This document shows positions 449-13,122 of a DNA stretch of 49,849 nucleotides, piece after piece (within the stretch, counting starts at the first letter, position 1; every line of letters starts with the position of its first letter). The stretch spans positions 1 through 49,849 of the forward strand of contig JALUTT010000052.1 of the NCBI GenBank assembly GCA_027021705.1, read 5' to 3'. The position numbers and the translations under genes were made by a program. The notes beneath the pieces were generated by a model. That model ran no database searches and was not told the origin of the DNA. It worked only from the letters and a program-made list of their open reading frames with translations. The stretch comes from Anaerolineae bacterium (GTDB taxonomy: Bacteria > Chloroflexota > Anaerolineae > S140-20).

Positions 449-910
449 GTGAAGGAGAAGCGGATCCAGACGCCTTACGATGACCTGACTTACCGGATCA
501 TCGGCTGTGCTATGGCTGTGCACCGCCATCGTGGTCCGGGGTATCGGGAGGACACCTACCAGCGTGATCTGGAGGTGCATTTCGCCGAGAGCGCATTGAC
601 CTATGAACCACAGAAACTGCTCGAAGTGTACGACAGTGCCCAGGGCGGCGTATTGGTCGGCTATTACATCCCCGACTTCATCGTTGAAGACACCGTGGTC
701 GTAGAGATCAAAGCGCTACCTGACTTGAGCGACAGCCATGTGGCTCAGGTAATTGGCTACCTGGCTGTGACGAACTGTCCGGTGGGTCTGTTGATCAACT
801 TCGGTAGACGCAGCTTGCAGTGGCGACGCATCCTGCCGCCGAGGAACATCACGGAGCACCGCATCAACCGACAGTGGTTGTTTGTACCGGAGTGGTTGAA
901 GCCGGAGTAA
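449..910 (+). CDS. GxxExxY protein, PD-(D/E)XK nuclease-like (PDDEXK_3 type)
   Basis: GAGGAGG RBS before GTG. Motifs IIGCAMAVHRHRGPGYREDTY (GxxExxY), PDFIVEDTVVVEIKA (PD...ExK), QVIGYL and GLLINFG are typical of the family. Confidence 0.92.
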   Translation: MKEKRIQTPYDDLTYRIIGCAMAVHRHRGPGYREDTYQRDLEVHFAESALTYEPQKLLEVYDSAQGGVLVGYYIPDFIVEDTVVVEIKALPDLSDSHVAQVIGYLAVTNCPVGLLINFGRRSLQWRRILPPRNITEHRINRQWLFVPEWLKPE

Positions 911-2351: not shown

Positions 2352-5282
2352 ATGGCCCAAGACAAGATCGTCGTCCGAGGTGCTCGCGAGCACAATCTGA
2401 AGAACATCACGGTGGAAATCCCCCGGAACCGGCTGGTCGTCATCACCGGCCTCTCCGGCTCCGGCAAGAGCTCCCTGGCCTTCGATACCATCTACGCCGA
2501 GGGGCGTCGCCGCTACGTGGAATCCCTCTCCGCCTACGCCCGGCAGTTTCTGGGCCAGATGGAAAAGCCGGACGTGGACCAGATTGACGGGCTCTCGCCG
2601 GCCATCTCCATTGACCAGCGGGGCGTCAGCCACAACCCCCGCTCCACCGTGGGCACCGTCACCGAGATCTACGACTACCTGCGCCTCCTCTACGCCCGCA
2701 TCGGCATCCCCCACTGTCCTCAGTGCGACCGCCCCGTCGTCCGGCAGAGCGCCCAGGAGATCGTGGACGCCGTGCTGCGGATGCCCGAGGGCACCCGCAT
2801 CCAGGTGCTGGCCCCCCTGGTGCGCGGGCGGAAGGGGCACCACCAGGCCGTCTTCGACGAGGTGCGCCGGGCCGGCTTCGTCCGCGTCCGGGTGGACGGC
2901 CAGGTCCGCGACGTGGACGAGGAGATCCGGCTGGACCGCTACAAGCTGCACACCATCGAGGTGGTCGTGGACCGGCTCATCGTCCGCCACCCCTCGGACG
3001 AAGAGGAGGCCCGGCAGTTCCGCTCCCGCCTCACCGACTCGGTGGAGACCGCCCTGCAGATGGGCGAGGGAACGCTGATCGTCAACGATGTCTCCGCCGA
3101 CCCGCCGGTGGACCACTTCTTCAGCGAGCACCTGGCCTGCCCTACCTGCGGCATCAGCCTGCCGGAGATCGAGCCCCGCACCTTCAGCTTCAACAGCCCC
3201 CACGGGGCCTGCCCCACCTGCCAGGGGCTGGGCGTCCAGATGAAGGTAGACCCCCGGCTGGTTGTGCCCAACGAGGAGCTGAGCCTGGCCGAGGGGGCGG
3301 TGCACGCCTGGAGCGGCCCCGAGGGCTCCCGCCGGGAGCGGAACGGCTACTACAGCCAGTTGCTCCGGGCCGTGGCCCGCCACTTCCACATCCCGATGGA
3401 CCGGCCCTGGCGGGAGCTGACGCCCACCCAGCGCCAGATCATCCTCTACGGCAGCGGTCAGGAGCGGATCCCCGTCACCTACGTCAACGCCGAGGGGCAC
3501 CGGCGCATCTACCAGACCCGCTTCGAGGGGGTGATCCCCAACCTGGAGCGGCGCTACCTGGAGACCACCTCCGACTACGTCCGCCACAAGATCGCCGGCT
3601 ACATGAGCTACAGCCCCTGCCCCGACTGCGGGGGGACCCGGCTGCGCCCAGAGGCGCGGGCGGTCAAGGTGGCCGGCAAGCCCATCCACGAGGTGACCGC
3701 CATGTCCGTCAGCCAGGCCCTGGCCTGGGTGAACGAACTGCGGGGCGAGGGAACGTCGGGGGCCGCTTCCCCCCTCACCCCCCGCCAACGGGCCATCGGC
3801 GAGCGCATCCTCAAGGAGATCGCCGACCGGTTGCAGTTTATGGTCAACGTGGGGCTGGACTACCTGACGCTGGACCGGGCCGCCTCCACCCTCTCCGGCG
3901 GTGAGGCCCAACGCATCCGGCTGGCCACCCAGATCGGCTCCCAACTGGTGGGCGTCCTCTACGTCCTGGATGAGCCCAGCATCGGCCTGCACCAGCGGGA
4001 CAACGCCCGTCTGATCCGCACCCTCCAGGGGATGCGGGACCTGGGCAACACCCTCATCGTGGTCGAGCACGACGAGGCGACGATCCGGGCCGCCGACTGG
4101 GTGATTGACCTGGGGCCGGGGGCCGGCGAACAAGGGGGCTACGTCGTCGCCACCGGCACCGTCGAGGAGATCATGGCGCACCCCGACTCGCTGACGGGGG
4201 CCTACCTGGCCGGCCGCCGGACCATCCCGCTGCCGGAGCGTCGCCGGTCCGGCAACGGTCGGTGGCTCGTCGTGCGCGGGGCCCGCGAGCACAACCTGAA
4301 GGGAATTGACGTCCGCATCCCCCTGGGCCGCTTCGTTTGCATCACCGGCGTCTCCGGCTCCGGCAAGAGCACGCTCCTCATCGAGATCGTCTACAAGCGG
4401 CTGGCCCAACTCCTCCACGGCTCCCGCCAGCGGGCCGGCGCCCACGACACCATCGAGGGCGTCCAGTGGATTGACAAGGTGATCCACATTGACCAGTCTC
4501 CCATCGGGCGGACGCCCCGCTCCAACCCGGCCACCTACACCGGCCTCTTCACCCCCATCCGGGAGCTCTTCGCCGGCCTGCCCGAATCGCGGATGCGGGG
4601 CTACCGTCCGGGTCGCTTCTCCTTCAACGTCAAAGGGGGGCGCTGCGAAGCCTGCCAGGGTCAGGGCGTCCTCCAGATCGAGATGCAGTTCCTGCCCGAC
4701 GTCTTCATCCCCTGCGACGTCTGCCACGGGACCCGCTACAACCGGGAGACGCTCCAGGTGCGCTACAAGGGGAAGAACATCGCCCAGGTGCTGGAGATGA
4801 CGGTGGACGAGGCGATGGCCTTCTTCGCCGACATCCCCACCATCCGGCGGAAGCTGAAGACGTTGCAAGATGTCGGGTTGGGCTACATCCGGCTGGGGCA
4901 GCCGGCGACCACCCTCTCCGGCGGTGAGGCCCAGCGGGTGAAGCTCTCCCGAGAGCTCTCCCGCAAGGCGACGGGCCGCACCCTCTACGTCCTCGACGAG
5001 CCCAGCGTCGGCCTCCACGCCCACGATGTCGCCCGGCTGATCCAGGTGCTCAACCGGCTGGTGGACGCCGGCAACACCGTCGTCATCATCGAGCACCACC
5101 CGGACATCATCAAGGTGGCCGACTGGATCATTGACCTGGGGCCGGAGGGGGGCGACGGGGGCGGCTGGATCGTCGCCGAGGGGACGCCGGAGGAGGTGGC
5201 CCAGGTGGACGCTTCCTACACGGGGCAGTTCCTGCGGGAGATCCTCCGGGAGCGCCGGGAGTCCATCCCCACGCCCTTGTAG
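2352..5282 (+). CDS. uvrA: Excinuclease ABC subunit A
   Basis: [13 protein letters not shown], two Walker A motifs ([18 protein letters not shown]), two [11 protein letters not shown] signatures, CxxC zinc fingers; 976 aa. Confidence 0.98.
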
Positions 5283-5389
5283 GCCGGAGTTTCCCTTCCA
5301 ACCCAGAGCCGCGGAGGGGGTGAGGGCACAGAGGCTTTGGTGTTCTCATCCCCCCAGCGATTCGGCGATCGGCATTCGTTGACCATCCG

Positions 5390-7282
5390 GTGTCTGCACC
5401 CGAGTCTCTTCAGGAAACCCTCCAGAATCTTCCCACCCGCCCGGGCGTCTACCTGATGCACAACGCCCAGGGTCAGGTGATCTACGTGGGCAAGGCGGTC
5501 AACCTGCGGGCCCGCGTCCGTTCCTACTTCCACGCCAGCGCCCAGGCCGCCTCCCCTCGTATCGCCCACCTGGTGCGCGAGATCGCCCGCATCGAGTTCA
5601 TCGTCACCGACAGCGAGCTGGAAGCGCTGATCCTGGAAGCCAACCTGATCAAGCGCCACCGCCCCCGCTACAACATCCGCCTCAAGGACGACAAGCGCTA
5701 CCCCTACATCAAGGTCCACTGGCAGGACCCCTTCCCCAAGGTGACCATCACCCGCCGTCTGGAGCAGGACGGCGCCCGCTACTTTGGCCCCTTCACCTCC
5801 TCGGCCGCCGTCCGGGAGACGCTGGAGACGCTGCGGAAGCTCTTCCCCTACCTGACCTGCGACCGGACGATCACCGGCCGGGATGAGCGGGCCTGCCTCT
5901 ACTACGACATCCACCTCTGCGCCGGCCCCTGCATCGGGGCCGTCGGCCGGGAGGCGTACCGGGGGATCATCGCCGGCCTCATCAAGTTCCTGGAGGGGAA
6001 GACCGAGGAGGTGGTGGCCGACCTGGAGCGGCGGATGCAGCAGGCCGCCGCCGACCTCCGCTTCGAGGAGGCGGCCCGCTACCGGGACCGGCTCCAGGCC
6101 ATCGCCCACGTCGTGGAGAAGCAGAAGATCGTCTCCACCCTCCAGACCGACCAGGACGTCATCGCCTTCGCCCGCGAGGAGGGGGATGCCTGCGTCCAGG
6201 TCTTCTTCATCCGGGGGGGCAAGCTGCTGGGGCGGGAGTACTTCGTGCTGGAGGGGACGGAGGAGCAGGCGGACGAGGAGGTCCTGGCCGCCTTCCTCAA
6301 GCAGTTCTACGAAGAGGCTGCCTACGTTCCTCCCGAAGTGCTGCTGCCGGAGCAGATCGAGGAGGCGCGGATCATCGAGCAGTGGCTGCAGCGGAAGCGG
6401 GGCGACCGGGTGCGGCTGGAGGTGCCCCGGGAGGGGATGGGCCGGGACCTGGTGCAGATGGCGGTTGAGAACGCGGCGGAGACGTTGGCGGTCCTGCGGG
6501 CCCGCTGGCGCTCCGACAGGCTGCGCCAGGAGGAGGCGCTGCGGGTGCTCGGGGAGGTGCTGGCCCTCTCCCACCCCCCGGCCCGCATCGAGGGCTACGA
6601 CATCGCCCACACCCAGGGGCGGGAGACGACGGGGAGCATGGTCGTCTTCGTCCAGGGCGTGCCCCGCAAGGGCGACTATCGGCGCTTCACCCTGCGGACG
6701 GCTCAGAGCGGGGACGACTACGCGGCGCTGCGGGAGGTGCTCACCCGCCGGTTCCGGCGCTACGCCGAAGTGCGGCAGCGGCAGGCCCGAGGGCTTCCCT
6801 TGAACCGGGGGGAGGCAGCCTGGGCGCTGCTCCCCGACCTGATCCTGGTGGACGGGGGGAAGGGGCAGCTTCAGGTGGCCCTGGAGGTGCTGGAGGCGTT
6901 CGACCTGGTGGGGCAGGTACCGGTGGTCGGCCTGGCGAAGGAGGCCCACACGAAGAGCGCCACCGACGAGCGGCTTTACCTGCCGGGGCGGTCGGAGCCG
7001 CTGGCGCTGCCTCCGCGCTCACCGGCCCTCCTGCTCCTCCAGCGGGTGCGGGACGAGGCCCATCGTTTCGCCCTGGCCCACCACCGCACCCGGCGTCGGA
7101 AGGCGGGGCTGGCCTCCCGGCTGGAGGAGATCCCCGGCGTGGGGCCGGTGCGGCGTCGGCGGCTGCTCCAGCACTTCGGGAGCTTGGAGGCGCTGCGAGC
7201 GGCCAGCGTGGAGGAGATCGCCGCCCTCCCCGGCATCCCCCGCGCCGTCGCCGAGGCGATTAAGGAGCATTTGGTGGGATAG
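5390..7282 (+). CDS. uvrC: Excinuclease ABC subunit C
   Basis: GIY-YIG N-terminus (PGVYLM...IYVGKAVNLRARVRSYF), UVR domain (LRFEEAARYRD), RNase H-like domain (LVDGGKGQL, RDEAHRFA), C-terminal HhH (IPGVG). Confidence 0.97.
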   Translation: MSAPESLQETLQNLPTRPGVYLMHNAQGQVIYVGKAVNLRARVRSYFHASAQAASPRIAHLVREIARIEFIVTDSELEALILEANLIKRHRPRYNIRLKDDKRYPYIKVHWQDPFPKVTITRRLEQDGARYFGPFTSSAAVRETLETLRKLFPYLTCDRTITGRDERACLYYDIHLCAGPCIGAVGREAYRGIIAGLIKFLEGKTEEVVADLERRMQQAAADLRFEEAARYRDRLQAIAHVVEKQKIVSTLQTDQDVIAFAREEGDACVQVFFIRGGKLLGREYFVLEGTEEQADEEVLAAFLKQFYEEAAYVPPEVLLPEQIEEARIIEQWLQRKRGDRVRLEVPREGMGRDLVQMAVENAAETLAVLRARWRSDRLRQEEALRVLGEVLALSHPPARIEGYDIAHTQGRETTGSMVVFVQGVPRKGDYRRFTLRTAQSGDDYAALREVLTRRFRRYAEVRQRQARGLPLNRGEAAWALLPDLILVDGGKGQLQVALEVLEAFDLVGQVPVVGLAKEAHTKSATDERLYLPGRSEPLALPPRSPALLLLQRVRDEAHRFALAHHRTRRRKAGLASRLEEIPGVGPVRRRRLLQHFGSLEALRAASVEEIAALPGIPRAVAEAIKEHLVG

Positions 7283-7436
7283 CGGCGTAGCGGCCGGCGA
7301 CCTAATGGCCGCCGTCGCCGGCGTGCCGGTGGAAGAAGCCACGGGAGGCTGACCCGGACGGGCCGGAACACCCGCCGCCAACGGCGCTATACTCGACACC
7401 GGCCAACGCAAGCAGAGGAAAGGAGAAAACCGCCCT

Positions 7437-10400
7437 ATGCTTGACACAATAGTCAGCGCCGCGACCGAAGCCGTCTTCGGGTACCTGCTGGAAGAAGCGG
7501 GCCTGGCCGACCGCGTCCGCGCCCGGCTGAAGCGCGAACCGGCCCGCCTGGCCTTCCAGGCGGCGCTGGTCAATGCCTACACTGCTTTCGCCCGCCACTA
7601 TCCCCAATGGACGGAATCCCTTTTCGACCAGACCTTTCTCACCCGCGAGGATGTGGCGGCGGAACTGTCCAAATTCCTCACCCGCCACCGGCACCCCGAC
7701 CCGGCGGCCATCGCCCACGCCTGGGCGGCCTACTTCCCCGCTGCCGACCCCGACCGCCGTGAGGCCCGCGTGGACGAACTCACCCCCATCGTGGCCTGCT
7801 TCCTGGACTGGTTGGAGGCCGAACTCAAGGCCCAGGAGGCGTTGCAGCCCCTCTTCGACAGCCGGGCCCTGGAACGGCTGCCCGAGCTTGCGGAGGACGT
7901 CGCGGCCATACGGAAGACGTTGACCCAGGCCCTGGAGCGGGCCGCCAAGTACCAGGTGGTGGTCCGGCAGGCCCAGGGCCTGGTCATCGGCGACCACGCC
8001 CAGGTGACTCAGGTGTTCCACACCTACTTCGGCGCGGATTACGTCACCCTGAAGGAGCGCTACATCTCGCCCGAGCCCGTCTTCGACCGTGTCAAACTGG
8101 ACCGCTTCGCCGGCCGGCAATGGCTGGAAGCGGAACTGGACGCCTTTCTGAACGCCCCCAACCGGGATCGAGGGGTATGGCTGCTGGTGGGGGAGGCCGG
8201 GGTGGGCAAGACCACCTTCCTGGCCCACCTGGTGCAGACGCGGGGCTACCTGCACCTCTTTGCAGAGCAAGCCCCAGGCAAGGCCAACCTGCGCCAAGCG
8301 CTGGGCTCCCTGGCCGTCCAACTGGTGAGCCGCTACCGTTTGGAGCCTTACGCCCGGCGAGACACCCTGCCCCAGGACCTGATCGAGGCCCCTCACTTCT
8401 TTGAGCGGCTGCTGCGCGCCGCTGCCGAACAACTGATTCACGGCGAACGCTTGGTCATCGTGATTGACGCACTGGACGAGGCCGGCGCCCTGCCCGACCA
8501 GAATGTCCTCAACTTGCCCAAGGTTCTGCCCAGAGGCGTCTACCTGATCCTCTCCCAGCGTCCCGTTCCCGTGCCCCTGCGGGTGGACGCCCCCCTGGAG
8601 CGGGTGGAACTGCAGGCGGAAAGCGAGGAGAACCGCCGGGACGTGAAGAAATTCCTGGGCATGGTCAGCCTCCGCCCGGAGATTGCCGGACAACTGCGGG
8701 CGCAGGGGGAGGAGACGGACCGTTTTGTGCAGGTGCTGGCCGAGCGCAGCGCGGGAAACTGGATGTACCTGCACTACGTGCTGGACGAGATCGCGCGGGG
8801 GGAACGCCATCCCCTGGACCTGGATGCGCTGCCCGTGGGGCTCACCGGGTACTACGCCGAGTACTGGCAGCGCTGGCGGGACAGGGATAAGACCGCCTGG
8901 GACACCCGCTACGTTCCTTTACTGGCCACCCTGGGGGCTGCGCAGGAGCCGTTGTCCTTGGACCTGCTGCTCACGTGGAGCGGGGTGGAGCGCGCCCAGA
9001 GATACCGGATCCAGCTCCTGTTGCGGGAACAATGGCGGGCCTTTGTGTACGAATTGAACGTGGACGGGCAACCGGTGTACCGCCCCTACCATGCCAGCCT
9101 GCGGGATTTCCTGCACGGCCGGCTGGACGAGGAGCAGTGGCGACATCTTTCCCTTGCCCATGAACGCCTGGTGCAGGAGTTGATGGATCGGACCCGGGAC
9201 GCCCACCGCCGCATTGCCAAGTCCTACCTGGCCGACCCGGCCCGCTGGCCCGCCCACGGGGGCTACGCCTTTCGCCACCTGACCCACCACCTGGCCCAGG
9301 CGGGCATGGTTGGCGAACTGGCCGCGCTCATCGAAAACCGCGCCTGGTACGCCGCCAGCCGGGACCACGACCCCAGCCGCCGCCTCTTCGCCGAGGATGT
9401 GGCCCGGGCGCTGGGCCTGGCCGAGGCGGAGGTGCTGGAGGAGAAACGCCCGGACCGCCTGCCCCCCGTCGTGGCCTGGAGCCTGCTCCACGCCACCGTG
9501 CGCACCCTGGCCACCAACGTGCCCGTGGAAGCCCTGGAGGCCATGGCCCTGCTGGACGACGCCGACCGCGCCCGACGCTACGCCGCCTTGATCACCGACC
9601 CGGAGAAGCAGACCGAGGCCTACCGGCGGATTGGGGTGCGCCTGCACGAGCAGGGGAACACGGAGCAAGCGCGGGAGGCCCTGCAGCGGGCCCTGGCCGC
9701 CGCCGAGGGGATTGGAGTGGAGCCGTTTCGCGCCTGGGCCCTGGCCGCCGTGGCCCAGGCGATGGCCCAGGTGGGCGACCGGGCCGGCCTGCAGCGGGCC
9801 CTGGCCGCCGCCGAGGGGATTGGAGTGGAGCCGTTTCGCGCCGAGGCCCTGGCCGCCGTGGCCCAGGCGATGGCCCAGGTGGGCGATACGGACAAGGCCC
9901 GGGAAGCCCTGCAGCGGGCCCTGGCCGCCGCCGAGGGGATTGGAGGGGAGTGGTCTCGCGCCCGTGCCCTGGCCGCCGTGGCCGAGACGATGGCCCAGGT
10001 GGGCGACCGGGCCGGCCTGCAGCGGGCCCTGGCCGCCGCCGAGGGGATTGGAGGGGAACGGTATCGCGCCCGTGCCCTGGCCGCCGTGGCCCAGGCGATG
10101 GCCCAGGTGGGCGACCGGGCCGGCCTGCAGCGGGCCCTGGCCGCCGCCGAGGGGATTGGATGGGAGCCGCCTCGCGCCGAGGCCCTGGCCGCCGTGGCCC
10201 AGGCCATGGCCCAGGTGGGCGATACGGACGCTGCCTGGGAAGCCCTGCAGCGGGCCCTGGCCGCCGCCGAGGGGATTGGCGATGCCGATGACCGCGCCCG
10301 GGCCCTGGCCGCCGTGGCCCAGGCCATGGCCCAGGTGGGCGATACGGACGCTGCCTGGGAAGCCCTGCAGCGGGCCCTGGCCGCCGCCGAGGGGATTGGC

Positions 10401-12722
10401 GATGCCGAGGACCGCGCCTGGGCCCTGGCCGCCGTGGCCCAGGCGATGGCCCAGGTGGGCGATACAGACAAGGCCCGGGAAGCCCTGCAGCGGGCCCTGG
10501 CCGCCGCCGAGGGGATTGGAGGGGAGTGGTCTCGCGCCCGTGCCCTGGCCGCCGTGGCCGAGACGATGGCCCAGGTGGGCGACCGGGCCGGCCTGCAGCG
10601 GGCCCTGGCCGCCGCCGAGGGGATTGGAGGGGAACGGTATCGCGCCCGTGCCCTGGCCGCCGTGGCCCAGGCGATGGCCCAGGTGGGCGACCGGGCCGGC
10701 CTGCAGCGGGCCCTGGCCGCCGCCGAGGGGATTGGAGTGGAGCCGTTTCGCGCCGAGGCCCTGGCCGCCGTGGCCCAGGCGATGGCCCAGGTGGGCGATA
10801 CGGACAAGGCCCGGGAAGCCCTGCAGCGGGCCCTGGCCGCCGCCGAGGGGATTGGAGGGGAGTGGTCTCGCGCCCGTGCCCTGGCCGCCGTGGCCGAGAC
10901 GATGGCCCAGGTGGGCGACCGGGCCGGCCTGCAACAGGCCCTGGCCGCCGCCGAGGGGATTGACCGGGAGCGGTATCGCGCCTGGGCCCTGGCCGCCGTG
11001 GCCCAGACGATGGCCCAGGTGGGCGACCGGGCCGGCCTGCAACAGGCCCTGGCCGCCGCCGAGGGGATTGGCGATGCCGAGGACCGCGCCGAGGCCCTGG
11101 CCGCCGTGGCCCAGACGATGGCCCAGGTGGGCGACCGGGCCGGCCTGCAGCGGGCCCTGGCCGCCGCCGAGGGGATTGGCGATGATCCGTTCGGCTCTCA
11201 CGCCGAGGCCCTGGCCGCCGTGGCCCAGGCGATGGCCCAGGTGGGCGATACGGACAAGGCCCGGGAAGCCCTGCAGCGGGCCCTGGCCGCCGCCGAGGGG
11301 ATTGGAGGGGAACGGTATCGCGCCCGTGCCCTGGCCGCCGTGGCCCAGGCCATGGCCCAGGTGGGCGACCGGGCCGGCCTGCAGCGGGCCCTGGCCGCCG
11401 CCGAGGGGATTGGCGATGCCGAGGACCGCGCCGAGGCCCTGGCCGCCGTGGCCCAGGCGATGGCCCAGGTGGGCGACCGGGAAGGCCTGCAGCGGGCCCT
11501 GGACGCTGCCGAGGGGATTGGTGATGCCGAGGACCGCGCCCGTGCCCTGGCCGCCGTGGCCCAGGCGATGGCCCAGGTGGGCGACCAGGCCGGCCTGCAA
11601 CAGGCCCTGGCCGCCGCCGAGGGGATTGGAGGGGAGTGGTCTCGCGCCCGTGCCCTGGCCGCCGTGGCCGAGACGATGGCCCAGGTGGGCGACCGGGCCG
11701 GCCTGCAACAGGCCCTGGCCGCCGCCGAGGGGATTGGCGATGATCCGTTCGGCTCTCACGCCGAGGCCCTGGCCGCCGTGGCCCAGGCGATGGCCCAGGT
11801 GGGCGACCGGGCCGGCCTGCAGCGCGCCCTGGCCGCCGCCGAGGGGATTGGCGATGCCTATTGGCGCGCCTGGGCCCTGGCCGCCGTGGCCCAGGCGATG
11901 GCCCAGGTGGGCGACCAGGCCGGCCTGCAACAGGCCCTGGCCGCCGCCGAGGGGATTGGAGGGGAGTGGTCTCGCGCCCGTGCCCTGGCCGCCGTGGCCC
12001 AGACGATGGCCCAGGTGGGCGATCGGGCCGGCCTGCAGCGGGCCCTGGCCGCCGCCGAGGGGATTGGAGGGGAACGGTATCGCGCCCGTGCCCTGGCCGC
12101 CGTGGCCCAGGCGATGGCCCAGGTGGGCGACCGGGCCGGCCTGCAGCGGGCCCTGGCCGCCGCCGAGGGGATTGGCGATGCCGAGGACCGCGCCGAGGCC
12201 CTGGCCGCCGTGGCCCAGGCGATGGCCCAGGCGATGGCCCAGGTGGGCGACCGGGAAGGCCTGCAGCGGGCCCTGGCCGCCGCCGAGGGGATTGGAGGGG
12301 AGTGGTCTCGCGCCCGTGCCCTGGCCGCCGTGGCCCAGGCGATGGCCCAGGTGGGCGATACGGACAAGGCCCGGGAAGCCCTGCAGCGGGCCCTGGCCGC
12401 CGCCGAGGGGGTTGGAGAGGAATGGTCTCGCGCCGAGGCCCTGGCCGCCGCCGAGGGGATTGGATGGGAGCCGCCTCGCGCCGAGGCCCTGGCCGCCGTG
12501 GCCCGGGCCATGGCCCAGGTGGCGCAGCCCGGCGACGCCGAGACGGCGAAGGGGGCGGTAGACGCCTTCCGCCGGGCACGCGAACAGGGCCGCGAGGAGG
12601 TGTGGTTGTACATTGGGGCCTTCGCCCCCGTGCTGGCCAAACTGGGCGTGCTCGGCGAGGCGTGGCGGCGCATCCAGGCGGTGGAGGCGGTGGTCTGGGG
12701 AGGGCGTGAGGGGCAACCATAA
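7437..12722 (+). CDS. NLR-like STAND NTPase: N-terminal helical domain, NACHT/AAA_16-like NTPase, C-terminal TPR-like repeat array (1761 aa)
   Basis: AGGAG RBS. Walker A GEAGVGKT (8190-8213) and Walker B LVIVIDALDE (8451-8480), STAND-like GNWMYL and LPVGLTGYY segments, then 26 helical repeats. Confidence 0.88.
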   Translation: MLDTIVSAATEAVFGYLLEEAGLADRVRARLKREPARLAFQAALVNAYTAFARHYPQWTESLFDQTFLTREDVAAELSKFLTRHRHPDPAAIAHAWAAYFPAADPDRREARVDELTPIVACFLDWLEAELKAQEALQPLFDSRALERLPELAEDVAAIRKTLTQALERAAKYQVVVRQAQGLVIGDHAQVTQVFHTYFGADYVTLKERYISPEPVFDRVKLDRFAGRQWLEAELDAFLNAPNRDRGVWLLVGEAGVGKTTFLAHLVQTRGYLHLFAEQAPGKANLRQALGSLAVQLVSRYRLEPYARRDTLPQDLIEAPHFFERLLRAAAEQLIHGERLVIVIDALDEAGALPDQNVLNLPKVLPRGVYLILSQRPVPVPLRVDAPLERVELQAESEENRRDVKKFLGMVSLRPEIAGQLRAQGEETDRFVQVLAERSAGNWMYLHYVLDEIARGERHPLDLDALPVGLTGYYAEYWQRWRDRDKTAWDTRYVPLLATLGAAQEPLSLDLLLTWSGVERAQRYRIQLLLREQWRAFVYELNVDGQPVYRPYHASLRDFLHGRLDEEQWRHLSLAHERLVQELMDRTRDAHRRIAKSYLADPARWPAHGGYAFRHLTHHLAQAGMVGELAALIENRAWYAASRDHDPSRRLFAEDVARALGLAEAEVLEEKRPDRLPPVVAWSLLHATVRTLATNVPVEALEAMALLDDADRARRYAALITDPEKQTEAYRRIGVRLHEQGNTEQAREALQRALAAAEGIGVEPFRAWALAAVAQAMAQVGDRAGLQRALAAAEGIGVEPFRAEALAAVAQAMAQVGDTDKAREALQRALAAAEGIGGEWSRARALAAVAETMAQVGDRAGLQRALAAAEGIGGERYRARALAAVAQAMAQVGDRAGLQRALAAAEGIGWEPPRAEALAAVAQAMAQVGDTDAAWEALQRALAAAEGIGDADDRARALAAVAQAMAQVGDTDAAWEALQRALAAAEGIGDAEDRAWALAAVAQAMAQVGDTDKAREALQRALAAAEGIGGEWSRARALAAVAETMAQVGDRAGLQRALAAAEGIGGERYRARALAAVAQAMAQVGDRAGLQRALAAAEGIGVEPFRAEALAAVAQAMAQVGDTDKAREALQRALAAAEGIGGEWSRARALAAVAETMAQVGDRAGLQQALAAAEGIDRERYRAWALAAVAQTMAQVGDRAGLQQALAAAEGIGDAEDRAEALAAVAQTMAQVGDRAGLQRALAAAEGIGDDPFGSHAEALAAVAQAMAQVGDTDKAREALQRALAAAEGIGGERYRARALAAVAQAMAQVGDRAGLQRALAAAEGIGDAEDRAEALAAVAQAMAQVGDREGLQRALDAAEGIGDAEDRARALAAVAQAMAQVGDQAGLQQALAAAEGIGGEWSRARALAAVAETMAQVGDRAGLQQALAAAEGIGDDPFGSHAEALAAVAQAMAQVGDRAGLQRALAAAEGIGDAYWRAWALAAVAQAMAQVGDQAGLQQALAAAEGIGGEWSRARALAAVAQTMAQVGDRAGLQRALAAAEGIGGERYRARALAAVAQAMAQVGDRAGLQRALAAAEGIGDAEDRAEALAAVAQAMAQAMAQVGDREGLQRALAAAEGIGGEWSRARALAAVAQAMAQVGDTDKAREALQRALAAAEGVGEEWSRAEALAAAEGIGWEPPRAEALAAVARAMAQVAQPGDAETAKGAVDAFRRAREQGREEVWLYIGAFAPVLAKLGVLGEAWRRIQAVEAVVWGGREGQP
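9676..12520 (+). repeat. Intragenic array of 26 coding repeats (108 or 120 bp; 36 or 40 aa) with a hypervariable cassette
   Basis: Scaffold LQRALAAAEGI-[variable]-A[W/E/R]-ALAAVAQAMAQVGD-[RAG or TDKAREA] is nearly identical at DNA level between copies. Confidence 0.95.
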
Positions 12723-12755
12723 GGTGCGACGCACCTGGGAGGTGCGTCGCACCTT
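12721..12755. repeat. Perfect 16-bp inverted repeat (REP-like or terminator-like) at the NLR stop codon
   Basis: AAGGTGCGACGCACCT-GGG-AGGTGCGTCGCACCTT; each arm is itself nearly palindromic; no U-tract. Confidence 0.8.
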
Positions 12756-12756
12756 C

Positions 12757-12814
12757 AAAGCGGCGCAGCGGGCCGGGGTTGAACCCCCTTCGGGGGCGAG
12801 CACCCGGCCCACGA
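12757..12814 (+). repeat. 58-bp structured direct repeat, copy 1
   Basis: AAAGCGGCGCAGCGGGCCGGGGTTGAACCCCCTTCGGGGGCGAGCACCCGGCCCACGA; 54/58 identical to 14803..14860. Confidence 0.9.
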
Positions 12815-12828
12815 GAAGGAGACCGGCT

Positions 12829-13122
12829 ATGCCCAAAAATTTGCGGCGCAATCTCTTGCTCGCCACGCCCTGCAACCTGCTGTTTGCCCTCTGGGCGCCT
12901 CTCGCCGGGGTTTTCACCCTGGAAACCTGGCCGCCCCTGGTGGGCCTGCTGATCGGCGCGGCTTTGCTGGTGTTCACCGGCAGCGCGTGGGTGAATTATG
13001 CTCGCAAGCGATACGCCGAAGCCCGGCAACGGTTGCTGTGGACGCTGATGCTTGACCTGTTGACCGTTGCCCTTGCGTTTTTGTTTCGCTGGCTATATCC
13101 TGGATTGGCGGGCTGGCAGTGA
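12829..13122 (+). CDS. Small membrane hypothetical protein (97 aa)
   Basis: AGAAGGAG RBS then ATG at 12829, in frame with ORF 12613..13122; about three hydrophobic segments. Confidence 0.7.
   Translation: MPKNLRRNLLLATPCNLLFALWAPLAGVFTLETWPPLVGLLIGAALLVFTGSAWVNYARKRYAEARQRLLWTLMLDLLTVALAFLFRWLYPGLAGWQ

What the first reader, a model, noticed from the sequence alone, without database searches (positions are those of the whole stretch)
9676..12520. NLR-like receptor with a combinatorial repeat sensor: constant scaffold and hypervariable cassette in 26 units
Seen: the scaffold DNA is almost invariant, but the cassette after AEG(I/V) reads, in order, GVEPFR-AW, GVEPFR-AE, GGEWSR-AR, GGERYR-AR, GWEPPR-AE, GDADDR-AR, GDAEDR-AW, GGEWSR-AR, GGERYR-AR, GVEPFR-AE, GGEWSR-AR, DRERYR-AW, GDAEDR-AE, GDDPFGSH-AE, GGERYR-AR, GDAEDR-AE, GDAEDR-AR, GGEWSR-AR, GDDPFGSH-AE, GDAYWR-AW, GGEWSR-AR, GGERYR-AR, GDAEDR-AE, GGEWSR-AR, GEEWSR-AE, GWEPPR-AE. 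Cassette, the W/E/R site and linker (RAG vs TDKAREA/TDAAWEA) are partly reassorted. The variable residues are aromatic or charged, as expected for a binding surface. Established: fungal HET-E-type NLRs diversify specificity by shuffling highly conserved repeats, and bacterial STAND proteins act as phage sensors. Inference: a recombination-programmable immune or non-self receptor whose specificity is set by unit order.
Basis: partly seen in the sequence, partly recalled or inferred. Interest (0 to 1): 0.85.

Follow-up and report, generated by a model that had tools for sequence, protein, structure and literature searches.

The report
Bacterial NLR with near-identical TPR repeats
This is one large gene of a hot-vent Chloroflexota bacterium built like an innate-immune NLR receptor, whose sensor is a row of about 26 almost identical repeats that differ only at a few surface positions; this design is already known from fungal and some bacterial NLRs.

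Summary
One ORF (7437-12722, +, 1761 aa) encodes an N-terminal helical domain, a NACHT P-loop NTPase, and 25 repeat units plus a fused, truncated 26th (9681-12521). Units are 36, 38, 40 or 42 aa long. Outside seven variable codons the unit DNA is 97.5% identical. Variation sits at unit positions 13-16, 19 and 26-27. The cassette, the W/E/R site and the linkers are reassorted.

The repeats are 40-residue-type TPRs. The variable sites form one stripe on helix A, and positions 19 and 26 are canonical TPR positions 2 and 9 of the concave binding face.

The same variable positions recur in three paralogues and in Thermoflexus and Chloroflexus homologues. Bacterial NLRs with highly internally conserved TPR or WD repeats are already in print (Dyrka 2014, 2020), and this scan met the kind before on other DNA. 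So this is a new member of a known kind.

"Recombination-programmable, specificity set by unit order" is not shown:
- No donor pool and no nearby reverse transcriptase were found.
- Exact internal repeats reach 284 nt.
- A second public assembly with identical flanks has only 7 units.
- Only k=31 contigs were available, so unit order and number remain unverified.

An immune role is inferred, not tested.

The parts
7437..12722 (+). Single CDS of 1761 aa (P0001), including the stop codon: an NLR-like STAND protein
7437..7973 (+). N-terminal all-helical domain (aa 1-179), probably of the NNH2 type (NACHT N-terminal helical domain 2). It is the presumed effector or adaptor.
   Evidence: AF2 with a 51-row alignment gives pLDDT 85.2 and an all-helical model. 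There is no significant PDB match: best Z 5.3 and Foldseek E >= 0.43. Homologues P0105, P0106 and P0109 reach Pfam NNH2 above its cut-off. The window's own domain gives no hit at E <= 1.
7950..8030 (+). Strand-like linker YQVVVRQAQGLVIGDHAQVTQVFHTYF (aa 172-198) between the N-terminal domain and the NTPase
   Evidence: Low pLDDT of 43-57. Related ...ITGD[HN]N.V motifs lie before P-loops elsewhere in the genome.
8145..8879 (+). NACHT / NPHP3_N P-loop NTPase core (aa ~237-481). Walker A GEAGVGKT lies at 8190-8213 and Walker B LVIVIDALDEAG at 8451-8486.
8880..9614 (+). Helical arm between the NTPase and the repeats (aa 482-726)
   Evidence: Conserved in homologues. The part covered by the sensor model (aa 640-726) is helical but has low pLDDT without an alignment.
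9615..9680 (+). Divergent capping TPR (aa 727-748) that sets the TPR register
   Evidence: Pfam TPR_2 matches residues 727-756 to profile positions 2-31
9681..12521 (+). Array of 24 full units (36, 38, 40 or 42 aa) plus a fused, truncated pair (units 25/26, 12381-12521). The hypervariable codons are at unit positions 13-16, 19 and 26-27.
   Evidence: The AF2 model has pLDDT 82-95 along the array.
12213..12242 (+). 12-nt slip duplication (AMAQ) inside unit 23. The same unit is present in the second assembly, P0002.
12522..12719 (+). C-terminal cap (aa 1696-1761, including REEVWLYIGAFAPVLAKLG). It is shared with the NB-ARC paralogue on contig C92 and with homologue P0009.
12721..12755 (.). Perfect 16-nt-arm hairpin overlapping the stop codon. 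It belongs to a small dispersed family with 6 full copies in the genome.

Best explanation
**What it is.** The gene encodes a bacterial NLR-type STAND protein of a Chloroflexota-wide family. It has three parts:
- an N-terminal helical domain, probably of the NNH2 type;
- a NACHT ATPase switch;
- a long TPR-like solenoid as sensor.

**What is shown.**
- The domain order.
- An intact P-loop.
- An array of helix-turn-helix units whose DNA is kept nearly identical, except at a few codons on one stripe of helix A.

**What is inferred.**
- The scaffold is homogenised by unequal crossing-over and gene conversion within the array (concerted evolution).
- Selection keeps different residues at the ligand-facing positions, so gain, loss and shuffling of units alter the binding groove.
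- By analogy with Avs, bNACHT and fungal HET-E-type NLRs, binding of a foreign or danger-associated protein in the groove would release the ATPase, drive oligomerisation and bring the N-terminal domains together to act. What the N-terminal domains then do is unknown.

**How diversification works.** It is passive: ordinary homologous recombination within the array. It is not a dedicated programmed system.
For: **Architecture.**
- Pfam NACHT, NPHP3_N, TPR_12 and TPR_2 all score above their cut-offs.
- The NTPase shows weak similarity to the PADLOC models Avs1b and STAND_TPR.

**Family.**
- 109 homologues were found at E <= 1e-3. Nearly all those that carry a name (one is a Streptomyces protein) are Chloroflexota: Thermoflexus, Chloroflexus, Roseiflexus, Anaerolineales and Ardenticatena.
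- The same N-terminus and NTPase are fused either to this repeat type or to WD40 repeats.

**Modularity typical of NLRs.**
- The paralogue on C73 carries a Trypsin_2 effector on the same NTPase (51% identity).
- The paralogue on C92 has an NB-ARC NTPase with the same repeat subtype and the same C-terminal cap.

**Concerted evolution.**
- Scaffold pS is 0.045, against 0.37 in the cassette.
- Whole blocks are duplicated exactly.
- Variable sites are reassorted.
- An out-of-register fusion (units 25/26) and a 12-nt slip are visible.

**Binding face.**
- AF2 puts helix A at unit positions 14-31 and the loops at 10-13 and 32-33, with pLDDT 82-95.
- The Pfam TPR_2 register of the capping repeat makes position 19 equal to TPR position 2, and position 26 equal to TPR position 9.
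- Magliery and Regan list positions 2, 5, 9, 12, 13, 33 and 34 as the variable, concave-face, ligand-contacting positions (passages).
- Positions 15/16, 19 and 26/27 are spaced i, i+3/4, i+7/11, which is one helical stripe.

**Same pattern elsewhere.**
- The same positions vary in C162, C92, C73, P0010 and P0012.
- The best sequence matches among solved structures are the Pins/LGN TPRs.

**Literature.**
- Bacterial NLRs with WD or TPR repeats of 80-90% internal identity are described (passage).
- Variable sites of fungal NLR TPRs lie on the concave face (passage).
Against: - No experiment or genomic context links this gene to defence. Its neighbours are uvrA and uvrC upstream, and a small membrane protein, a lipoprotein and PBP1 downstream.
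- The N-terminal domain has no known activity and no structural match. Its NNH2 assignment rests on homologues only.
- pN/pS in the cassette is about 1 (0.98). This does not prove positive selection.
- No model coordinates were available, so the "one face" claim is inferred from register and periodicity.
- A solenoid of 26 units is far longer than any characterised Avs sensor. How such a length would read a ligand is unclear.
- Unit order and number may be partly assembly products.
Confidence: 0.65

Rival explanations
1. The array as printed is partly an assembly product. The units and their internal combinations are real, but their number and order (26 here) do not reflect one real molecule.
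For: - Exact internal repeats of 284, 240 and 152 nt exceed short-read k-mers.
- The genome is a 183-contig draft. Small contigs such as C119, C183 and the end of C162 are made of related repeats.
- A second public assembly, P0002, shares an identical 760-aa prefix and 134-aa suffix but has 7 units. Only 1 of its 5 unit adjacencies is shared, and 2 of its 6 unit strings are absent from the window.
- Only k=31 contigs of the runs were available. None links the unique flank to a cassette.
Against: - In the likely source run X1, the summed contig depth over unit 1 is 2512-3437, against 62.5-79 on the unique flank. That is about 32-55 unit-equivalents, so it does not point to fewer than 26. The tool warns that this is not a copy number and that other organisms add to it.
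- Cassette, W/E/R site, Q/E-A/T site and linker all lie within about 100 nt, which single reads cover.
- Homologues from other assemblies also have 20 or more near-identical units, for example P0012.
Confidence: 0.45
2. The protein is not an anti-phage sensor. It is a STAND switch used for another purpose in a filamentous bacterium: kin or non-self recognition between cells, as in fungal HET-E; regulated cell death during development; or a signalling scaffold.
For: - NLR architectures are enriched in multicellular bacteria, including Chloroflexota (passages).
- The fungal proteins with the same repeat regime are allorecognition genes (passages).
- There is no defence-island context.
- The N-terminal domain has no nuclease, protease or other recognisable killing activity.
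Against: - The paralogue with the same NTPase carries a trypsin-like effector, as in Avs2-type defence proteins (Avs2 from the search listing and abstracts).
- The characterised bacterial STANDs with TPR-like sensors that I know of sense phage proteins (abstracts).
- There is no DNA-binding output domain.
Confidence: 0.25
3. A dedicated programmed diversification system acts on the array. It would be either silent donor cassettes, as in antigenic variation, or a diversity-generating retroelement.
For: Cassette-like replacement of a short patch inside an invariant scaffold looks superficially like both. DGR-diversified conflict sensors exist in multicellular bacteria (abstract).
Against: - No copy of the scaffold lies outside the array above 72% identity over a long match. 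The nearest copies belong to other intact STAND genes.
- There is one reverse transcriptase in the genome, on another contig (C85), and no template repeat.
- Cassette types differ at many bases rather than at adenine-templated sites only.
Confidence: 0.03

Closest known systems
Fungal NLRs with highly internally conserved repeats: Podospora HET-E, HET-D and NWD (WD40), and the NB-ARC/TPR and NACHT/ANK loci of Dyrka et al. 2014 (passages)
   Same: - Tripartite NLR layout.
- Repeats about 85% identical to each other.
- Variation confined to a few positions that map to the binding face.
- Repeat shuffling and concerted evolution.
   Different: - This protein is bacterial, from Chloroflexota.
- The units are 36 or 40 residues, against the 42-residue TPR_10-type length that I recall for the fungal loci.
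- There are 26 units, against 21 in the longest fungal TPR example quoted in that paper.
- The N-terminal domain is unrelated to HET or HeLo.
- Positive selection and repeat-number polymorphism are shown in fungi but not here.
Bacterial NLR-like proteins with near-identical TPR or WD repeats, noted by Dyrka et al. 2020 (passage), citing Marold et al. 2015 and Hu et al. 2017
   Same: The same phenomenon in bacteria. [quoted passage not shown]
   Different: - This family (NNH2-like N-terminus, NACHT, 36/40-aa units) is not named there.
- The Marold paper could not be read. That it describes 42-residue repeats is my recollection only.
Antiviral STAND NTPases (Avs1-5, Avs7 and others) and bNACHT proteins
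   Same: - STAND ATPase with a C-terminal helical-repeat sensor and a swappable N-terminal effector.
- One paralogue here has a trypsin-like effector.
- Activation by ligand-induced oligomerisation is the model I borrow from them.
   Different: - Similarity to Avs1b is weak and limited to the NTPase (E 7.9e-8, 28 bits).
- As far as I know, characterised Avs sensors are divergent repeats, not DNA-homogenised arrays. A 2026 survey preprint has no hit for 'hypervariab' or 'tandem repeat'.
- There is no defence-island context.
Pins/LGN and kinesin-light-chain type TPRs of 40-42 residues (TPR_12)
   Same: They are the best sequence matches among solved structures (5a7d, 4a1s). They share the G-D-x-x-x-x-R-A start of helix A.
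   Different: They are eukaryotic scaffold proteins with no NTPase, and their repeats are divergent.

Membership tests
STAND / NACHT NTPase | P-loop with Walker A GxxxxGK[ST] and Walker B hhhhD[DE]; profile match above the curated cut-off | tested here: met
   GEAGVGKT at aa 252-259 and LVIVIDALDEAG at aa 339-350. Pfam NACHT scores 29.1 bits (cut-off 26.7) and NPHP3_N scores 32.4 bits (cut-off 24.8).
NLR-type tripartite architecture | N-terminal effector or adaptor, central NOD, and C-terminal superstructure-forming repeats in one polypeptide | tested here: met
TPR repeats | Helix-turn-helix units with the TPR small/large residue pattern and a profile match | tested here: met
   TPR_12 scores 80.6 bits (cut-off 30.1; 7 stretches) and TPR_2 scores 52 bits. 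AF2 gives alternating helices of 18 and 12-16 residues. The top Foldseek matches are long TPR and HEAT solenoids with low TM-scores. Unit length is 36/40 rather than the canonical 34.
Highly internally conserved (HIC) NLR repeats (Dyrka 2014 criterion: over 85% identity over at least 100 aa) | Repeats of one protein about 85% or more identical to each other | tested here: met
   Mean pairwise identity among 22 units is 85.8% (amino acid) and 89.9% (DNA), and 97.5% outside the 7 variable codons
HIC NLR repeats | Variable positions map to the ligand-binding face | tested here: inconclusive
   Register, predicted secondary structure and published TPR positions put positions 19 and 26 at TPR positions 2 and 9 on the concave face. 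No coordinates were available to measure this.
HIC NLR repeats | Positive diversifying selection at the variable codons | tested here: inconclusive
   pN/pS is 0.98 in the cassette and 0.18 in the scaffold. This is a crude Nei-Gojobori count on recombining repeats.
HIC NLR repeats | Repeat-number and repeat-order polymorphism between individuals | tested here: inconclusive
   P0002 has 7 units against 26, between identical flanks. Both are metagenome assemblies of a repeat that short reads cannot order.
Avs (antiviral STAND) families in PADLOC | Full-length match to an Avs model | tested here: not met
   Only a partial NTPase match to Avs1b: residues 209-481 against profile positions 188-463 of 1924, at 28.1 bits
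NNH2 (Pfam PF22734) N-terminal domain | Profile match above the cut-off of 27 bits | tested here: inconclusive
   The window's own domain gives no NNH2 hit at E <= 1. Homologues P0105 (28.9 bits), P0106 (29.5) and P0109 (35.7) pass, while P0035 (24.5) does not and P0047 (27.0) sits at the cut-off. The Atlas feature score of 0.88 is a lead only.
Diversity-generating retroelement target | Nearby RT and a template repeat; adenine-specific variation | tested here: not met
   There is one RT in the genome, on contig C85. No template-like copy was found.
Antigenic-variation type cassette system | Silent donor copies sharing the scaffold | tested here: not met
   The own-genome DNA search finds nothing outside the array above 72% identity over a long match. 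The draft genome is 94.9% complete.

The most novel reading that the evidence does not exclude
The two public versions of this gene have identical 760-aa and 134-aa flanks but 26 versus 7 units, with a different order and one cassette (DRAEHR) absent from the window. They could be real alleles in natural vent populations. In that case a bacterial NLR sensor is being rebuilt by intra-array recombination on the timescale of strain divergence. This would be the bacterial counterpart of het-e/het-d allelic diversification, and it could be tracked in metagenomes with long reads.
Probability: 0.35. Interest if true: 0.6.

Novelty: new member of a known kind. Interest (0 to 1): 0.36.

Why it matters
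The locus is a clean and very long bacterial example of the "constant scaffold, variable patch" repeat sensor that fungi use for non-self recognition.

- It comes from a thermophilic, probably filamentous lineage.
- Paralogues in the same genome swap the effector (a trypsin-like protease) and the NTPase (NB-ARC).
- If the array really varies between strains, it would allow a direct test of whether bacteria diversify NLR specificity by repeat shuffling.
- The near-consensus units could also serve as a natural, thermostable scaffold for binder design.

As it stands, it adds a member to a known kind, not a new principle.

Tried and rejected
**Reads.**
- Only Logan k=31 contigs were on offer.
- I laid the unique flank plus one unit (8400-9800) and did not send the array, because the tool turns away long repeats.
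- No contig bridges the flank to a cassette, so order and number could not be tested.
- Runs X2, X3 and X5, from other studies, hold only diverged relatives (95% identity or less) with other cassettes. I draw no conclusion about habitat or strains from them.

**Searches for further alleles or relatives.**
- The metagenome-contig scan returned only the window's own contig plus three distant fragments.
- A search for shorter proteins with the C-terminal 202 aa found 6 hits, none above 54% identity. So there are no further alleles.
- Among 40 relatives' genomes, 3 had any match and none had an orthologue. The best was 45% identity, in G018.

**N-terminal domain.**
- Foldseek against PDB gave no hit at E <= 0.001. 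VIA-align wide gave a best Z of 5.3, below the background for helical bundles. The many membrane-bundle rows are not evidence.
- Pfam at E <= 1 gave only a chance-level DUF848 hit.

**Other checks that led nowhere.**
- Foldseek on the sensor model gave generic long solenoids with TM 0.1-0.3.
- The promoter and terminator scan found none in 7200-12900.
- The DGR and donor-cassette ideas were rejected.
- The long antisense ORFs across the array (8919-12977 and 9592-13029, minus strand) were rejected as products of GC-rich repeats. Only the plus frame continues the NACHT protein and matches TPR profiles.
- The Marold 2015 paper is not held.
- The eLife 2020 conflict-systems paper and a 2026 Avs survey preprint have no passage about homogenised repeat sensors under the terms I searched.
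Full report
**The observation.** The window is a whole 49,849-bp contig (C52) of a 183-contig draft genome of 5.19 Mb, 94.9% complete. One intact ORF runs from 7437 to 12722 on the plus strand and encodes 1761 aa. Tandem Repeats Finder reports a 108-nt period with 24.7 copies at 84% matches over 9680-12450.

Splitting the protein at the LQ[RQ]AL.AAEG anchor gives 25 unit starts. Twenty-four are full units of 36, 38, 40 or 42 aa. The last is fused out of register to one more cassette (12381-12521).

At the DNA level the 11-codon start of the unit has 4 variants, and 17 of 24 units are identical there. The 14-codon helix segment has 8 variants that differ by one to three bases or by one 12-nt slip. 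The cassette has 10 DNA types.

For the 22 of 24 full units with a 6-aa cassette:
- Mean pairwise identity is 85.8% (amino acid) and 89.9% (DNA).
- Outside seven variable codons, DNA identity is 97.5%.
- Entropy exceeds 1.4 bits only at unit positions 13, 15, 16 and 19.
- Positions 3, 14, 26 and 27 vary moderately.
- Scaffold pN is 0.008 and pS is 0.045. Cassette plus W/E/R site has pN 0.36 and pS 0.37.

Reassortment is real inside single units. GDAEDR occurs with E, R and W. GVEPFR occurs with E and W. GGEWSR occurs with ET, QA and QT. Cassettes occur with several linkers. The caveat is that the "26 units" are built from about five base cassette types and contain exactly duplicated multi-unit blocks of 284, 240 and 152 nt.

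**What the protein is.**
- *NTPase.* Pfam finds NACHT (29.1 bits; cut-off 26.7) and NPHP3_N (32.4 bits; cut-off 24.8) at residues 237-379. Walker A (GEAGVGKT, aa 252-259) and Walker B (LVIVIDALDEAG, aa 339-350) are present.
- *Repeats.* TPR_12 scores 80.6 bits and TPR_2 scores 52 bits.
- *Defence libraries.* PADLOC gives only weak matches limited to the NTPase: Avs1b at 28 bits and STAND_TPR at 30 bits.
- *N-terminal domain.* The first 180 residues fold, with a 51-row alignment, into a confident all-helical domain (pLDDT 85.2). It has no meaningful match among solved structures: best Z 5.3, Foldseek E >= 0.43. The domain itself matches no Pfam family. Alignable homologues P0105, P0106 and P0109 reach Pfam NNH2, "NACHT N-terminal helical domain 2", above its cut-off. 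I therefore call it NNH2-like by transitivity.
- *Linker.* A strand-like linker with low confidence (aa 172-198) follows the N-terminal domain.

**Family and genome context.** A search with residues 1-750 found 109 proteins. Nearly all that carry a name (one is a Streptomyces protein) are from Chloroflexota: Thermoflexus, Chloroflexus, Roseiflexus, Anaerolineales and Ardenticatena. The same N-terminus and NTPase are fused either to this repeat type or to WD40 repeats.

The genome itself holds paralogues:
- C73 has a Trypsin_2 N-terminal domain on the same NTPase (51% identity) and divergent repeats of the same type.
- C162 has the same NTPase (49% identity) and near-identical repeats, and runs close to a contig end.
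- C92 has an NB-ARC NTPase joined to the same repeat subtype and the same C-terminal cap as the window's gene.

This shuffling of effector, NOD and sensor modules is the hallmark of NLR families.

The neighbours are ordinary. Upstream lie uvrA and uvrC. Downstream lie a small membrane protein, a lipoprotein, a class A PBP and others. There is no defence island and no mobile element.

**Where the variable residues sit.** AlphaFold2 on residues 640-1761, without an alignment, gives pLDDT 82-95 along the array. Every unit shows:
- helix B from position 34 to position 9 of the next unit;
- a loop at positions 10-13 (G-I-G-x);
- helix A at positions 14-31;
- a turn at positions 32-33 (G-D).

The 8-aa cassette GDDPFGSH lengthens the loop.

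The Pfam TPR_2 match of the capping repeat (residues 727-756 on profile positions 2-31) fixes the register:

| Unit position | Canonical TPR position |
|---|---|
| 19 (W/E/R) | 2 |
| 21 | 4 |
| 24 / 25 | 7 / 8 |
| 26 (Q/E) | 9 |
| 27 (A/T) | 10 |
| 28 | 11 |

Magliery and Regan report that TPR positions 2, 5, 9, 12, 13, 33 and 34 are the most variable, lie on one face, and are exposed on the concave, ligand-binding side (passages).

Cassette positions 15 and 16 lie three and four residues before position 19, on a one-turn N-terminal extension of helix A. So positions 15/16, 19 and 26/27 form a single helical stripe, with invariant alanines at 22/23 between them. Position 13 is the last loop residue before that helix.

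The best sequence matches among solved structures are the 40-residue TPRs of Pins/LGN. The tool returns no coordinates, so the "one face" claim is an inference and not a measurement.

The same positions (12-16 and 19) are the variable ones in C162, C92 and C73, in the Thermoflexus protein P0010, and in the Chloroflexus protein P0012, where 21 units were matched. This argues that the pattern is a property of the family and not an accident of this assembly.

**How the pattern arises.** Synonymous divergence of the scaffold (0.045) is eight times lower than that of the cassette (0.37). The scaffold is therefore being homogenised while the cassettes are old or protected. That is concerted evolution by unequal crossing-over and gene conversion.

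Footprints of such events are visible:
- exact block duplications;
- reassorted sites;
- a 12-nt slip in unit 23;
- an out-of-register fusion of units 25 and 26 at a shared ALAA stretch.

Both the slip and the fusion are also present in the second assembly, so they are stable.

pN/pS is about 1 in the cassette and 0.18 in the scaffold. This is compatible with diversifying selection but does not prove it.

Nothing points to a dedicated mechanism:
- The own-genome DNA search finds no copy of the scaffold outside the array above 72% identity over a long match, and those copies belong to other intact genes.
- The only reverse transcriptase is on another contig.

**Is the array as printed real?** This is the weak point.
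- Exact repeats of up to 284 nt cannot be ordered by short-read k-mers.
- The protein collection holds a second version, P0002, from another public assembly on an 8,765-bp contig. Its first 760 and last 134 residues are identical to the window's protein, but it has 7 cassette units. Four of its 6 unit strings equal window units 23, 24, 7 and 25. Two are absent from the window: one is a new cassette-linker combination, and one has a new cassette, DRAEHR. Only 1 of 5 adjacencies is shared.
- The six runs that hold the flank are all hydrothermal-vent metagenomes, kept only as k=31 contigs.
- Laid on 8400-9800, the likely source run shows depth 62.5-79 on the unique flank and 2512-3437 summed over unit 1. 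That is about 32-55 unit-equivalents. It argues against an over-assembled array. However, the tool states that such sums are not copy numbers, and other organisms contribute.
- No contig links the flank to a cassette.
- Other collections gave no further allele.

So the two versions may be real alleles, or one or both may be wrong paths through the repeat graph. I cannot tell which.

**Comparison with what is known.** Dyrka et al. 2014 describe fungal NLRs in which 21% of TPR arrays are over 85% internally identical. These arrays show repeat-number polymorphism and carry their variable and positively selected sites on the concave TPR face. The longest TPR example quoted there has 21 motifs (passages).

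Dyrka et al. 2020 state that bacterial NLRs, including those of Chloroflexi, also have WD and TPR repeats with 80-90% internal identity. They suggest the same regime of rapid diversification, citing Marold 2015 and Hu 2017 (passage). The Marold paper itself was not available.

This scan has met the kind before on other DNA: an Acidobacteria NLR with a six-codon variable patch (e1-3772532) and a Ktedonobacterales NLR-like gene with near-identical TPRs (e1-2705577). I did not test those notes.

The finding is therefore a new member of a known kind. It stands out for its length (26 units as assembled), its 36/40-residue unit, its NNH2-like N-terminus and its vent Chloroflexota host.

**Verdict.**
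- The NLR-like reading and the binding-surface reading are supported.
- The [quoted passage not shown] goes beyond the evidence. Diversification is most likely passive concerted evolution, unit order is unverified, and an immune role is inferred only by analogy.
- Interest is moderate to low. The most novel reading still open is true allelic variation of the array between natural populations, at about 0.35.

Noticed in passing
window 12721-12755: A perfect hairpin (16-nt arms, 3-nt loop) overlaps the stop codon of the NLR gene. Six full copies with at most 5 substitutions, and 37 arm matches, are scattered over the genome. It is probably one of the REP-like palindromes that earlier notes report for this genome. 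No T-tract follows it, and the terminator scan did not call it.
   Followed up: partly
G000 contigs C73, C162, C77, C88, C117, C144, C181, C175 and window 7980: A short motif of the type ...IGG(D/G)V..S(I/L)(L/I)ITGD(H/N)N.V occurs 10 times in the six-frame translation. It mostly lies just upstream of P-loop (STAND-like) domains. The window's copy is degenerate. It may be a shared strand-forming linker or signalling motif of this genome's STAND proteins.
   Followed up: partly
G000:C92:84769-87915 (-), locus L014: A paralogue with an NB-ARC NTPase (69.4 bits) carries the same repeat subtype and the same C-terminal cap as the window's NACHT protein. Its array is 68-74% identical in DNA. So the sensor module has been exchanged between two NTPase classes.
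   Followed up: partly
G000:C73:50021-55690 (-), locus L012: A 1890-aa paralogue has an N-terminal Trypsin_2 domain (56.5 bits), the same NTPase (51% identity) and a long array of divergent repeats of the I.D...RA.AL type.
   Followed up: partly
G000 contigs C119 (1516 bp), C183 (1005 bp) and the end of C162: Short contigs consist of related repeat units. This is a sign that repeat arrays of this family broke the assembly elsewhere.
   Followed up: no
L019 (G018:C93), 1237-2535: In a genome of the same class, the window's N-terminal domain (54% identity over aa 46-169) is joined to an NB-ARC-like P-loop and then directly to a C-terminal cap, with no repeat array. The first helix lies in another reading frame. 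This looks like a decayed or frameshifted relative.
   Followed up: no
window 8919-12977 and 9592-13029 (-): Very long antisense ORFs (1352 and 1145 aa) cross the array. Their GC3 is as high as that of the true frame. They are by-products of GC-rich repeats and could mislead gene callers.
   Followed up: partly
window 449-910 and 2352-7282: A PD-(D/E)XK_3 nuclease-family ORF lies at 449-910. It is followed by uvrA (2352-5282) and uvrC (5390-7282) directly upstream of the NLR gene.
   Followed up: no
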